Origin: Candidatus Latescibacterota bacterium
GTDB lineage: Bacteria; Latescibacterota; UBA2968; UBA8231
Reading direction: 5' to 3'
Assembly: GCA_965223905.1 (NCBI GenBank)
Contig: CBDCXV010000010.1
Span: 896,001 to 960,000 of the forward strand
DNA: 64,000 nt
The first letter of the stretch is position 1. Each line of letters starts with the position of its first letter. A program made the translations under genes and the position numbers. The notes below the pieces were generated by a model that made no database searches, was not told the DNA's origin, and saw only the letters and a list, made by a program, of their open reading frames with translations. Shown piece by piece: positions 46,720 through 48,779 of this stretch.

Positions 46720-47589
46720 GTCGTAGTCCTCCGGCTCGTACACGCGCACCCCGCACAGCCTCAGCTCGCGCCAGAAGAAGCGGAACAGGTCGATTTTCGG
46801 GGGATCGGCAAAAATGGCGACGACGACGATGCGACCGCGCGTGCGCACCAACTCCGTCATCACCCGGGCCCCCTCCTGGGTGCCGGAGACCTCGAACAGC
46901 ACGTCGGCGCCACCCGGGCTGTGCTCCTCCACGGCCCCGGCGAGATCGCGGGCGCGCGGGTCCACCGTCTCGAAACCGAGATCGCGGGCGAACTGCACCC
47001 GGTACGGGTTGACCTCGGCCAGCAGCACCTCGGCCCCGGCGTGGCGGCAGACCAGGGCTACCAGGGTTCCGATCGGGCCGCCGCCGATGACGACCGCCCG
47101 CTCCCCCGGTTTCACCTCGCCGAGACGGACGTCGTGGCAGGCCACGGCCAGCGGCTCGATCAGGGCCGCCAGCTCCATCGAGATGCCCTCGGGCAGCCGG
47201 TGCAGGGTGTGCGCCGGCACCGTCCAGGAGGCCTGGAAGGCCCCGGGGCTGTCGATGCCTATGAAGTTGAGATTCTGGCAGATGTGCTCGTGGCCGCGGC
47301 GGCAGGCCGGGCAGCCATGGCACGGCTCCAGCGGGCGCACGACGACCCCGTCCCCCGCGGCCCAGCCGCCGACCCCGGGACCGGTCTCGGCGATCGTCCC
47401 GGACATCTCGTGACCGATCACCAGCGGCGTGCTCACGCGCTGATCCATGTGGCCCTGGAAGATGTGCAGGTCGGTCCCGCACACGCCGCACCAGGCGACG
47501 TCGACGCGGACCTGTCCGGCCCCCGGGGCCACCGGCTCACACGGCCCCACTCCGATCTTCTTGCCGCCCTCGTAGAACGCCGCTTTCAC
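46720..47589 (-). pseudogene. 5' part of a Zn-dependent alcohol/sugar dehydrogenase
   Basis: GVCGTD, GHE, CHGCPACRRG..HIC, GGGPIG; native frame ends at VYEPEDYD at the TSD. Confidence 0.93.
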
Positions 47590-47751
47590 GGTTGCCCCTC
47601 TCCTTGCGAAACCCCTGCGGCGACTCCGCGCCGCCGCAGGGGCAGATAATAGCGACGACGCCAGATGGTCTCAATCGGGACCCGGGTCCCTGGGGACCCG
47701 GCAGGTTGCGGCCCCTGTCCTGCTGCCGCAGCCGGTCCGCAGGGCAGGTAC

Positions 47752-47786
47752 AAAAAAAACAGGGGGCAACCAAGGTTGCCCCCTGT
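47752..47786 (-). terminator. Intrinsic terminator
   Basis: ACAGGGGGCAACC-TT-GGTTGCCCCCTGT followed by a T-run on the minus strand. Confidence 0.85.
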
Positions 47787-48050
47787 CAGGGAAAAGAAGC
47801 CGGACGGGGGAGAAAATGTCCGTCCGGCGAAGGGCATCCGGCACGAGGCGACCCTGCCGGACGCCCACCACCCGTTTCCGGGTGGAATCGGCGCCAGGAT
47901 CGCTCCCGGCGTCGATGTGGGGATGGGCAAATCCTACGAAGCGGACCGGTGAAAGTCAAGCAAAAGAAAGGCCGACAGGATCGCCTCTGTCCTGCCGGCC
48001 CGGAACAAAGCTCGGCACCCGAAAGGGTGACTGGCTTTATGTTTGGAACA
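47752..48050 (-). ncRNA. Candidate ~300-nt structured RNA of unrecognised family
   Basis: Own promoter and terminator, at least six hairpins, GCGA and GAAA tetraloops, G-U pairs, complementary loops GAGGCGA/TCGCCTC. Confidence 0.72.
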
Positions 48051-48055
48051 GCCCA

Positions 48056-48084
48056 ATACTACTTGCATCCCGCTTTCTTGTCAA
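48056..48084 (-). promoter_or_regulatory. sigma70-type promoter
   Basis: TTGACA(48084-48079)-17 nt-TAGTAT(48061-48056). Confidence 0.75.
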
Positions 48085-48146
48085 GCGAAAATCTAGGCCT
48101 AGGTCTTGTTTTTTATGCGGTTGTACCCTGTCGGTTCAAGCTGGAG

Positions 48147-48779
48147 ATGAGCGGAACCGTCTTCTACATCGGCGATCCGATGTGCTCCTGGTGCTGGGGA
48201 TTCGGCCCCGCCCTCGCCGCGGTCGAGGCGGGGCTGCCGGCTGAAGTCCCCATGCGCTACGTCATGGGCGGCCTGGCCCCCGACTCGGACGAACCGATGG
48301 CGCCGGAGGTGCGCGCCTACGTGCAGGAGAACTGGCGCGCCGTCGAGGCCGGGACCGGGGCTTCCTTCAACTGGGATTTCTGGGAGCGCTGCCTCCCTAG
48401 GCGCTCCACCTACCCCGCCTGCCGGGCGGTCCTCGCCGCCCAGCTGCAGGACGCGGGGCCGGCGATGTTCCGCGCCGTCCAGAGAGCCTACTACACCGAG
48501 GCGCGCAATCCGTCCGACCTCGAGACCCTCACATCCCTGGCCGCGGAACTCGGGCTCGACGCCGCCCGCTTCGAGCGGGATATCGCCTCCCCCGAGGTCG
48601 AAGCGCTGCTGCAGCGGGACTTCGAGACGCGCCGCCGGCTGGGAGTCCGCGAGTTTCCCACCCTGCTGATCGAATCCCCGGCAGGCTCCGGGAAGAAGGT
48701 CCTGCTCGCCCGCGGCTGGGCGGAGCCCCGCGCCGTCCTCGCCGCCCTCCGCAGGGCCCTGGGCGCCGCGGCTGACTGA
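48147..48779 (+). CDS. DsbA-family (FrnE-like) thioredoxin-fold protein
   Basis: DPMCSWCWGF, RRSTYPACRAV, GVREFPTL. Confidence 0.9.
   Translation: MSGTVFYIGDPMCSWCWGFGPALAAVEAGLPAEVPMRYVMGGLAPDSDEPMAPEVRAYVQENWRAVEAGTGASFNWDFWERCLPRRSTYPACRAVLAAQLQDAGPAMFRAVQRAYYTEARNPSDLETLTSLAAELGLDAARFERDIASPEVEALLQRDFETRRRLGVREFPTLLIESPAGSGKKVLLARGWAEPRAVLAALRRALGAAAD

What the first reader, a model, noticed from the sequence alone, without database searches (positions are those of the whole stretch)
47752..48084. Stand-alone ~300-nt RNA with promoter, GNRA loops, kissing-loop complement and terminator
Seen (minus strand): TTGACA-17-TAGTAT, then hairpins at 48000-47970, 47916-47887 (GCGA loop), 47885-47868 (GAAA loop), 47866-47832 and 47828-47799, and a terminator at 47786-47752. 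The loops of the first and fourth hairpins are complementary over 7 nt (GAGGCGA/TCGCCTC), stems use G-U pairs, and linkers are C/U-rich. It lacks hallmarks of tRNA, tmRNA, RNase P, SRP or 6S. Inference: a new ncRNA class with tertiary structure, or a riboswitch/attenuator controlling the ADH-Gfo-propeller-creatininase operon that starts about 160 nt downstream.
Basis: partly seen in the sequence, partly recalled or inferred. Interest (0 to 1): 0.8.

Follow-up and report, generated by a model that had tools for sequence, protein, structure and literature searches.

The report
Two tandem small RNA genes
The region holds two neighbouring small regulatory RNA genes, not one 300-nt RNA; the pair is conserved in one family of uncultured bacteria, matches no known RNA family, and has two invariant hairpin loops that could pair with each other.

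Summary
The unit is misread. The first hairpin (48000-47970) is followed by a U-rich tract, and a second sigma-70-like promoter follows it (47959-47931). So there are two genes: sRNA1 (~88 nt, ~48050-47962) and sRNA2 (~172 nt, ~47924-47752).

Covariance models find sRNA2 in 19 of 132 genomes of the class, all in 7 genera of one family. The public records found are labelled Candidatus Latescibacterota. sRNA1 lies directly upstream in 14 of those 19. In the other 5, sRNA2 stands alone with its own conserved promoter.

Stems covary while the unpaired motifs stay fixed. Flanking genes differ between loci and three downstream genes are convergent. That argues against a leader of the ADH operon. The GNRA hairpins occur in one genus only. 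Rfam gives no match at gathering score.

Most likely sRNA2 is a C/U-rich base-pairing regulator. sRNA1 is probably its partner or decoy, binding through GAGGCG:CGCCUC loop pairing. The pairing, the targets and the transcript ends are not shown.

The parts
48093..48114 (-). Upstream element of promoter 1: A-tract AAAAAACAA (48114-48106) and the palindrome CTAGGCCTAG (48102-48093), ending 8 nt before the -35. Probable binding site of a transcription factor.
   Evidence: The A-tract is kept in all 13 sRNA1 loci aligned, and 11 of the 13 keep a full CTAG-NN-CTAG palindrome (L012 and L035 have degenerate versions). CTAG is rare in this genome (0.28 per kb). CTAGNNCTAG occurs only 4 times in 7.9 Mb. 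Binding is inferred, not shown.
48056..48084 (-). Promoter 1: TTGACA, 17 nt, TAGTAT
   Evidence: 10 of 12 consensus positions. TAGTAT is kept in all 13 sRNA1 loci; the TTGAC of the -35 is kept in 12 of 13 (the alignment gaps L037, whose raw sequence reads TTGGCT at the 17-nt spacing).
47962..48050 (-). sRNA1, about 88 nt; both ends are predicted, not mapped. It has a 5' hairpin (about 48037-48007) and a terminator hairpin (48000-47970) with a 9-nt loop CAGAGGCGA (47989-47981), followed by CUUUCUUUU.
   Evidence: Model R1 matches 13 of 76 family genomes at E <= 1.6e-6. In the terminator stem 99.4% of cells pair and 6 of 12 pairs show compensatory change. The loop core GAGGCGA is invariant.
47931..47959 (-). 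Promoter 2: TTGACT, 17 nt, TAGGAT
   Evidence: The pattern TTGAC[AT]-N17-TAnnnT is present in 19 of 19 sRNA2 loci, with variable spacer sequence. This includes the 5 loci that have no sRNA1.
47752..47924 (-). sRNA2, about 172 nt; both ends are predicted. In order: 5' single-stranded CCAUCCCCA (47926-47918); genus-specific GCGA and GAAA hairpins (47916-47868); hairpin B (47866-47832) with CGCCUC in its loop (47850-47845); hairpin C (47828-47799) with loop ACAUUUUCUCCC; linker UUCUUUUCCCU (47798-47788); terminator (47787-47752).
   Evidence: Model R2 matches 19 of 132 class genomes. Over 45 pairs, 88.9% of cells pair and 30 pairs show compensatory change; 0 of 500 shuffles reach this. A 183-nt contig of a metatranscriptome run covers 47793-47975 without a difference.
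47646..47674 (-). Not part of the RNAs. Third promoter-like site (TTGAGA-17-TATTAT) upstream of the Zn-ADH gene, whose GTG start is at 47589.
   Evidence: It gives the ADH operon a possible promoter of its own downstream of the sRNA2 terminator.
48147..48779 (+). Not part of the RNAs. Divergent DsbA-like thioredoxin-fold gene that bounds the intergenic region.
   Evidence: Pfam Thioredoxin_5 at 8.3e-19 and DSBA at 1.1e-13.

Best explanation
The locus holds two adjacent, separately promoted and separately terminated small RNA genes.

sRNA2 (about 155-225 nt across genera) is a trans-acting base-pairing regulator. Its stems vary and covary. Four unpaired C/U-rich motifs stay fixed: 5'-terminal CCAUCCCCA, loop CGCCUC, loop CUUUCUCCCCC, and linker UUCUCCCUA. 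Such motifs resemble the anti-Shine-Dalgarno end of 16S rRNA. They would pair with G-rich ribosome-binding regions of several mRNAs and block translation.

sRNA1 (about 85-110 nt) is transcribed from a promoter preceded by a rare CTAG palindrome, which is probably a regulator's binding site. It displays an invariant GAGGCGA in the 9-nt loop of its terminator hairpin. That loop can pair with the CGCCUC loop of sRNA2: 6-7 bp in all genera, extendable to 16 bp in this genus. I infer that sRNA1 binds sRNA2 as a partner or decoy (anti-sRNA) and tunes its activity when its own promoter is switched.

Shown: the two-module anatomy, conservation, covariation, single copy, variable neighbours, and no match to a known family.
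Inferred: transcript ends, the base-pairing mode of action, the sRNA1-sRNA2 contact, and the regulator at promoter 1.

My odds:
- Two independent sRNA genes: about 0.8.
- sRNA2 acts by pairing through its C-rich motifs: about 0.5.
- sRNA1 pairs with sRNA2: about 0.35.
The confidence given for this explanation (0.45) is for the picture as a whole.
For: Anatomy:
- Three promoter-like sites and a terminator-like hairpin after each RNA.

Conservation:
- R1 (promoter 1 plus sRNA1) matches 13 of 76 family genomes at E <= 1.6e-6.
- R2 (sRNA2) matches 19 of 76 family genomes at E <= 2.5e-15, and 19 of 132 in the class with 0 of 56 outside the family.
- Two further copies came from a metagenome scan.

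Independence of the modules:
- Promoter 2 is kept in 19 of 19 loci.
- 5 genomes carry sRNA2 alone, directly after a PIG-L family gene, and R1 finds nothing in them (0 of 5 at E <= 10).
- The spacer between the modules varies from about 10 to about 100 nt.

Structure:
- sRNA2: 45 pairs, 88.9% of cells paired against 36-54% when partners are slid; 30 pairs with compensatory change; 0 of 500 shuffles as high.
- sRNA1 terminator stem: 99.4% paired, 6 of 12 pairs compensatory.
- The unpaired motifs are invariant or nearly so.

Trans action:
- The 10 loci scanned have 5 downstream gene families plus one locus with none, in both orientations.

Loop pairing:
- It is the best perfect helix after an accessibility correction in 9 of 12 genomes and within 0.2 kcal/mol of the best in a tenth.
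- A complement of 7 nt or more arises in 24 of 1260 (window) and 20 of 1260 (L032) composition-preserving permutations of the loop.
- In this genus the complement is a 16-nt inverted repeat.

Anti-SD idea:
- The 16S 3' end reads CACCUCCUUUCU.
- Complements of the C loop and the linker are about 1.5-1.7 times commoner in crude start-codon regions than inside genes.
- No Hfq gene was found. The C-rich, Hfq-independent sRNAs NfeR1 and RoxS work this way (passages of PMC10746234; abstract of PMC8216469).
Against: - No transcript ends are known. The only RNA data are assembled contigs of metatranscriptome runs. These may contain DNA and show neither strand nor ends.
- Those contigs run 16-50 nt upstream of the predicted sRNA2 start, across promoter 2. 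That fits read-through from promoter 1, or DNA, better than a clean promoter-2 start.
- The sRNA1 part has no RNA contig.
- Both loop cores are invariant, so there is no covariation between them.
- Cognate sRNA1/sRNA2 pairs are not better matched than non-cognate ones.
- At the 6-nt core conserved in all genera, the complement is only weakly unlikely: 96-148 of 1260 permutations.
- In the window's own genome the accessibility-corrected score does not rank the loop pairing among the top three.
- The CGCCUC loop is equally invariant in the 5 genomes without sRNA1. It must therefore have another partner.
- Its complement is not enriched at start regions: 706 there against 898 in controls.
- No convincing mRNA target was found. 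The best candidates proved to lie inside coding sequence or at mis-called starts.
Confidence: 0.45

Rival explanations
1. Two independent sRNA genes that do not touch each other. The loop complementarity is a relic of an inverted duplication of one hairpin, or arises because sRNA1 resembles a target site. Each RNA has its own mRNA or protein partners.
For: - The CGCCUC loop stays invariant in the 5 genomes that lack sRNA1.
- There is no co-variation between the loops, and cognate pairs are no better than non-cognate ones.
- The 6-nt core complement is reached in 8-12% of loop permutations.
- In this genus hairpin B looks like a reverse-complement copy of the sRNA1 terminator hairpin (I2).
Against: - sRNA1 is never found away from sRNA2: 14 of 14 genomes, always directly upstream.
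- Both loops are invariant while the adjoining stems change.
- A complement of 7 nt or more is reached in only about 2% of permutations.
Confidence: 0.25
2. This is the first reader's unit: one primary transcript of about 300 nt from promoter 1. It reads through the first hairpin, possibly is processed there, and the two loops kiss within one molecule.
For: - Three contigs of RNA libraries from two studies cover sRNA2 and continue upstream across promoter 2. All three stop at about 47975-47981, in the 3' arm of the first hairpin.
- The U-tract after the first hairpin is interrupted (CUUUCUUUU here, CUCUUUCUAUG in L036), so termination may be leaky.
Against: - The promoter-2 hexamers and the 17-nt spacing are kept in 19 of 19 loci while the spacer sequence drifts.
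- sRNA2 with this promoter stands alone in 5 genomes.
- The distance between the modules varies by about 90 nt.
- The RNA-library contigs may be DNA: neighbouring genes are covered at similar depth (3.8 against 8.1), and contigs cannot show ends.
Confidence: 0.15
3. One or both RNAs act by binding a protein. For example, they could sequester an RNA-binding regulator through the invariant loops, rather than pairing with RNA.
For: - Invariant loops on covarying stems suit protein recognition just as well.
- No mRNA target was found.
- No Hfq and no 6S RNA match turned up in this genome, so its RNA-protein circuits may be unusual.
Against: - No repeated GGA-type motif array of the CsrB/RsmZ kind is visible in the sequence (read; the CsrA motif is recalled).
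- sRNA2 lacks the rod-with-bubble shape of 6S RNA.
- No candidate protein is linked to the locus: neighbours vary.
Confidence: 0.08
4. A cis-acting leader, riboswitch or attenuator of the downstream ADH-Gfo operon.
For: A Zn-ADH gene follows on the same strand in the window, in its near-identical relative, and in one other genus (L013). In L013 it starts about 30 nt after the terminator.
Against: - Among 10 loci scanned, the downstream gene is ADH in 2, PhyH (convergent) in 2, Gfo/Idh/MocA in 3 (one convergent), sulfatase in 1, amidase in 1, and nothing in Pfam in 1.
- The RNA ends in a strong terminator (13 bp plus 8 U). No competing antiterminator appears in the predicted folds.
- The ADH gene has its own promoter-like site.
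- No riboswitch family matches.
Confidence: 0.03

Closest known systems
alpha-r14 / NfeR1 and related anti-SD sRNAs of alpha-proteobacteria (AbcR1/2; MmgR = Rfam suhB RF00519)
   Same: - Several hairpins whose stems differ between species, while identical C/U-rich motifs sit in the unpaired parts.
- The motifs resemble the anti-Shine-Dalgarno sequence.
- NfeR1 is Hfq-independent and is controlled by transcription factors bound at its promoter (passages of PMC10746234 read).
- Rfam's weak sub-threshold matches fall exactly on the C-rich linker plus terminator of sRNA2.
   Different: - Scores lie far below the gathering scores: suhB 24.1 against 41, ar14 20.2 against 58.8, BjrC80 27.1 against 80.
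- The motifs are different (CCAUCCCCA, CGCCUC, CUCCCCC rather than CCUCCUCCC) and are not copies of one another.
- The phylum is different.
- sRNA2 has a dedicated neighbour RNA complementary to one of its loops.
RoxS (C-rich sRNA) and its sponge RosA in Bacillus subtilis
   Same: A C-rich regulator is paired with a second sRNA that binds it and is under separate transcriptional control, in a setting where no Hfq-type hub is known (abstract of PMC8216469).
   Different: - There is no sequence relation.
- My recollection that RosA and RoxS are not adjacent genes comes from memory, not from a call.
- Here the two genes are always adjacent, and the contact would be a loop-loop kiss of 6-7 bp.
- Nothing has been tested experimentally here.
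Loop-loop (kissing) antisense pairs of plasmids, such as CopA/CopT and RNAI/RNAII (recalled, not looked up)
   Same: GC-rich complementary hairpin loops of 6-7 nt. In the window's genus the pairing could spread into the stems (16 nt).
   Different: Those pairs are transcribed from opposite strands of one locus and are fully complementary. Here the two RNAs are tandem, on the same strand, and complementary only at one hairpin.

Membership tests
Any Rfam 15 family | Covariance-model score at or above the family's gathering score | tested here: not met
   0 matches in the 64-kb window and 0 in 13 homologous loci. The best sub-threshold matches are ylbH 29.5/50 (wrong strand), BjrC80 27.1/80, suhB 24.1/41 and ar14 20.2/58.8.
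alpha-r14 (NfeR1) family | [quoted passage not shown] | tested here: not met
   The motif is absent from all 19 sRNA2 sequences. The unpaired motifs differ from one another.
Trans-acting base-pairing sRNA (general kind) | Own promoter and intrinsic terminator, conserved as a unit | tested here: met
   Promoter 2 is present in 19 of 19 loci. The terminator stem has 98.7% of cells paired, with 8 of 12 pairs compensatory (helix 5). For sRNA1.
Trans-acting base-pairing sRNA (general kind) | Conserved unpaired seed regions on covarying stems | tested here: met
Trans-acting base-pairing sRNA (general kind) | Genomic neighbours not conserved (not a leader of one gene) | tested here: met
   5 downstream Pfam families plus one locus with none among 10 loci; 3 convergent.
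Trans-acting base-pairing sRNA (general kind) | Discrete transcript of the predicted size and strand | tested here: inconclusive
   Contigs of 3 metatranscriptome runs cover sRNA2. They may be DNA, give no strand or ends, and cross promoter 2.
Trans-acting base-pairing sRNA (general kind) | Identified mRNA targets complementary to the seeds | tested here: inconclusive
   A crude scan of 3930 guessed gene starts gave only about 1.5-1.7-fold enrichment for two motifs, none for loop B, and no credible single target.
sRNA sponge / anti-sRNA (RosA-like) | Complementarity to a functional region of the partner sRNA | tested here: met
   A GAGGCG:CGCCUC core in all 12 genomes tested, 7 bp in 8 of them, and 16 nt in this genus. 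Chance level is about 2% for 7 nt and 8-12% for 6 nt.
sRNA sponge / anti-sRNA (RosA-like) | Physical binding, and an effect on the partner's level or activity | not testable with these tools
   This needs gel shifts, an RNA interactome or genetics.
Riboswitch / transcription attenuator | Constant association with one downstream gene or pathway | tested here: not met
6S RNA | Match to RF00013; long irregular duplex with a central bubble closed by the 5' and 3' ends | tested here: not met
   No RF00013 match anywhere in the genome. sRNA2 folds as a row of separate hairpins with free ends.
REP-like dispersed repeat | Many copies per genome | tested here: not met
   One copy in 7.9 Mb.

The most novel reading that the evidence does not exclude
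A hard-wired two-RNA switch. A transcription-factor-controlled anti-sRNA (sRNA1) is always encoded directly upstream of its partner. It captures the multi-seed C-rich regulator sRNA2 through a conserved kissing loop, possibly triggering cleavage at the hairpin where the RNA-library contigs stop. In this way it would gate a post-transcriptional regulon in an uncultured lineage where no Hfq was found and for which no regulatory RNA turned up in the papers I searched.
Probability: 0.3. Interest if true: 0.65.

Novelty: new member of a known kind. Interest (0 to 1): 0.45.

Why it matters
I found no paper on small RNAs of this candidate phylum. The search 'Latescibacterota' + 'sRNA' returned 0 papers. 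The search 'Latescibacteria' + 'small RNA' returned 1 paper, unrelated by its title and abstract. Supplementary files were not consulted.

The locus offers two well-defined RNA families with strong covariation, ready to be curated. It also offers a testable pair in which one sRNA may control another. This arrangement, a regulator and its candidate decoy fixed side by side, would make sponge-type control easy to study by synthesis and in vitro binding, even though the organisms are uncultured.

It also corrects the original claim. There is no sign of a large RNA with tertiary structure, and none of a riboswitch.

Tried and rejected
- BLAST alone reached only 4 genera, so covariance models were needed.
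- Dropped matches. After looking at the sequence I dropped G018 (inside a coding region, no promoter), G059 (a terminator only) and G081 (a terminator after a gene). G026 (L014) was printed and left out without further analysis. G063, G053, G073, G022 and G041 were weak (E from 0.003 to 0.16) and were not examined.
- The 'order' search covered the same 76 genomes as the family and added nothing.
- The genome contigs pattern scan gave only 3 records, but it supplied the organism labels.
- The metagenome scan gave 6 contigs. By eye, 4 look the same as genome loci already held and 2 are new. Both loops are unchanged in all six, so the hoped-for loop covariation test was impossible.
- Cognate against non-cognate duplex energies showed no co-evolution signal.
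- The target search used my own rough gene calls: 3930 ORFs covering 53% of the genome, with starts chosen partly by an SD score, which biases the result. It gave no credible target. The best loop-B candidates were a mis-called start and a site inside a hydantoinase-like coding sequence.
- An array of GGGAGAAAA repeats complementary to the C loop (contig C9, about 262519) reads through in frame with the sequence on both sides by my own reading, so I take it as a protein repeat; no translation or Pfam scan was run.
- A 22-25-codon ORF starting in GGAAUGACG of sRNA2 exists in some genera. It has no counterpart in the window's genus or in the sRNA2-alone group, so I judged it non-coding (read).
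- A second possible contact (sRNA1 UGGGG with sRNA2 CCCCA, 5 bp) appears in some genera only.
- RNA runs. sRNA1 had no cover in the RNA-library contigs, and sRNA2 was covered only in part. Absence of cover is no evidence.
- Hfq and 6S searches were negative in a genome estimated 93.6% complete. This does not prove absence.
I added the field and one sentence explaining it, and sent the same report again.
Full report
**What is in the sequence.** The finding lies in a 557-nt gap (47590-48146) between two diverging genes. On the plus strand a DsbA-like gene starts at 48147. On the minus strand a zinc alcohol dehydrogenase gene starts with GTG at 47589.

The stretch folds far better than shuffled copies (z = -8.8). 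The consensus scan finds three promoter-like sites where 0.1 is expected, and four terminator-like sites where 0.9 is expected. ARAGORN finds nothing. Rfam gives no match at gathering score in the window. The region is single-copy in its 7.9-Mb genome.

**The unit is two genes, not one.** The first hairpin (48000-47970) is followed by CUUUCUUUU. Ten bases further on stands a second promoter-like site, TTGACT-17-TAGGAT (47959-47931). This gives two genes:
- sRNA1, about 88 nt: promoter 1, then a 5' hairpin, then a terminator hairpin whose 9-nt loop reads CAGAGGCGA.
- sRNA2, about 172 nt: promoter 2, then 5' CCAUCCCCA, two small hairpins, hairpin B with CGCCUC in its loop, hairpin C with a C/U-rich loop, the linker UUCUUUUCCCU, and a strong terminator.

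A third promoter-like site (47674-47646) lies between that terminator and the ADH gene.

**Relatives.** The records that share the sRNA1 loop pattern are titled 'MAG: Candidatus Latescibacterota bacterium' in 2 of 3 cases and 'Gemmatimonadetes bacterium' in 1 of 3.

BLAST found the region in 5 relatives from 4 genera. I then built two covariance models.
- R1 covers promoter 1 plus sRNA1. It matches 13 of 76 family genomes at E <= 1.6e-6. Two further weak matches were set aside.
- R2 covers sRNA2. It matches 19 of 76 family genomes at E <= 2.5e-15. Four weak matches were set aside. In the class it matches 19 of 132 genomes, all within the one family (7 of its 18 genera). None of the 56 genomes of the other three families matched. 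The GTDB order equals the family.
- A metagenome scan added two new copies.
- Rfam finds nothing at gathering score in 13 of these loci.

**Independence of the two modules.** sRNA1 lies directly upstream of sRNA2 in 14 of the 19 genomes. Thirteen come from R1; in G087 the contig starts inside sRNA1.

In the other 5 genomes, a subgroup of one genus, sRNA2 follows a PIG-L family gene with no sRNA1. R1 finds no copy elsewhere in them: 0 of 5 at E <= 10.

The pattern TTGAC[AT]-N17-TAnnnT precedes sRNA2 in 19 of 19 loci, with drifting spacer sequence. Where no earlier CCCC run confuses the count, the -10 box ends 8 nt before the CCCC of the 5' motif. The spacer between the sRNA1 terminator and promoter 2 ranges from about 10 to about 100 nt. 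These are the marks of two transcription units.

**Structure.** On the 19-sequence alignment of sRNA2, a four-hairpin structure has 45 pairs. Of all cells, 88.9% form standard pairs, against 36-54% when partners are slid. Thirty pairs carry compensatory changes, and 0 of 500 shuffles reach these values. One caveat applies: the alignment was fitted to a model, and the structure was taken from one member.

In the sRNA1 terminator stem 99.4% of cells pair and 6 of 12 pairs are compensatory.

By contrast the unpaired motifs hardly change:
- GAGGCGA in the sRNA1 loop.
- CCAUCCCCA at the 5' end of sRNA2.
- CGCCUC in loop B.
- CUUUCUCCCCC in loop C.
- UUCUCCCUA in the linker.

Elsewhere a single UUCG-type hairpin, or other hairpins, takes their place.

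**Cis or trans.** Pfam scans of the flanking genes of 10 loci gave these downstream genes:
- Zn-ADH on the same strand in 2 loci.
- PhyH, convergent, in 2.
- Gfo/Idh/MocA in 3, one of them convergent.
- Sulfatase in 1.
- Amidase in 1.
- Nothing in Pfam in 1.

The upstream genes were a DsbA-like gene, an epimerase, a beta-lactamase-family gene, a xylose-isomerase-like gene, a GNAT and a PIG-L gene. A leader or riboswitch of the ADH operon is thus very unlikely.

**The two loops.** The GAGGCG:CGCCUC core is present in every pair. It extends to 7 bp on one side or the other in 8 of 12 genomes. In the window's genus it extends to 16 nt, including 2 G-U pairs.

With a simple accessibility correction it is the best perfect helix between the two RNAs in 9 of 12 genomes and lies within 0.2 kcal/mol of the best in a tenth. 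It is not among the top three in the window's own genome, where loop B is predicted partly closed.

Permuting the loop letters gives a complement of 7 nt or more in about 2% of cases, and of 6 nt or more in 8-12%. Neither loop varies, so covariation cannot be scored. Cognate pairs are no better than non-cognate ones. The contact is therefore plausible but not shown.

The CGCCUC loop is just as invariant where sRNA1 is missing. That fits a picture in which the loop has other targets and sRNA1 imitates them.

**Mode of action.**
- The 16S rRNA ends in CACCUCCUUUCU, so C/U-rich motifs could pair with ribosome-binding sites.
- In a crude scan, complements of the C loop and of the linker were about 1.5-1.7 times commoner near guessed start codons than inside genes. 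The complement of loop B was not enriched. No single target was convincing.
- No Hfq gene was found.
- The nearest parallels are NfeR1 and RoxS/RosA. NfeR1 is Hfq-independent and has identical anti-SD motifs on variable stems (passages of PMC10746234). In B. subtilis the sRNA RoxS has a separately regulated sponge, RosA (abstract of PMC8216469).

**Promoter 1.** It is preceded by an A-tract and by the palindrome CTAGGCCTAG (CTAG-NN-CTAG). Eleven of the 13 sRNA1 loci keep a full palindrome, and some genera have a second palindrome further upstream. CTAG is roughly eleven times rarer than base composition predicts in this genome. The double site occurs only 4 times. A dedicated DNA-binding regulator is the simplest reading. 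This is inferred.

**Expression.** Three metatranscriptome runs, labelled sponge metagenome by the tool, hold parts of the region as assembled contigs.
- One 183-nt contig covers 47793-47975 without a difference. Its depth is 8.1, against 3.8 for contigs on the ADH gene.
- Two contigs of a relative (90-95% alike), from another study, cover the same RNA.
- All three continue upstream across promoter 2 and stop near 47975-47981, in the 3' arm of the sRNA1 terminator hairpin.

Contigs cannot show ends or strand, and RNA libraries can carry DNA. So this is only a weak hint. It is compatible with transcription of sRNA2. It is also compatible with read-through or processing at the first hairpin, which keeps the single-transcript rival alive.

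**Verdict.** This is a real and so far undescribed pair of small RNA genes, restricted to part of one family. sRNA2 is most likely a C-rich base-pairing regulator, and sRNA1 its neighbour and possible decoy. The claims of a single large RNA with tertiary structure, and of a riboswitch, are not supported.

I found no paper on sRNAs of this phylum.

Noticed in passing
whole genome G000: CTAG is strongly avoided: 2189 copies in 7.9 Mb, or 0.28 per kb, roughly eleven times fewer than base composition predicts. CTAGNNCTAG occurs only 4 times, one of them at promoter 1. Another identical CTAGGCCTAG lies at contig C10:713296.
   Followed up: partly
whole genome G000: No Hfq (PF17209) and no 6S RNA (RF00013) match in a genome estimated 93.6% complete. 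Either they are missing or they are too divergent for these models.
   Followed up: no
window 47612-47642, minus strand (pair I5): A perfect 11-bp hairpin (CCCCTGCGGCG / CGCCGCAGGGG, 9-nt loop) sits in the ADH leader just upstream of its AAGGAGAGGGG ribosome-binding site and downstream of the third promoter-like site. It could be a separate regulatory hairpin of the ADH gene.
   Followed up: no
window 47975-47981: Three contigs from RNA libraries of two studies end within 6 nt of each other, in the 3' arm of the sRNA1 terminator hairpin. This could be chance at low coverage or a processing site.
   Followed up: no
L031 and L042 (genome G085, contigs C279 and C262): One genome bin carries two different sRNA2 copies on two short contigs, each with an sRNA1 terminator upstream. 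They are either paralogues or two strains binned together.
   Followed up: no
L034 (genome G083): This sRNA2 lacks the whole C-loop hairpin (a deletion of about 30 nt) but keeps the 5' motif, loop B, the linker and the terminator.
   Followed up: no
L052-L057 (genomes G084, G019, G089, G090, G091): In the five genomes without sRNA1, the C-loop motif reads CUUUCUCCUAC and the linker UUUCUCCAUAG, in place of CUCCCCC and UCUCCCUA. Loop B is unchanged.
   Followed up: no
genome G000, contig C9 about 262519-262575: Four tandem GGGAGAAAA units, exactly complementary to the UUUUCUCCC of the sRNA2 C loop. They read through in frame with the sequence on both sides, so I take them as a protein repeat, probably a coincidence; no translation or Pfam scan was run.
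   Followed up: partly
L032, L036 and relatives, inside sRNA2: An AUG in GGAAUGACG opens a 22-25-codon frame through hairpins B and C in three genera. It has no visible ribosome-binding site and is absent from the window's genus and from the sRNA2-alone group.
   Followed up: partly
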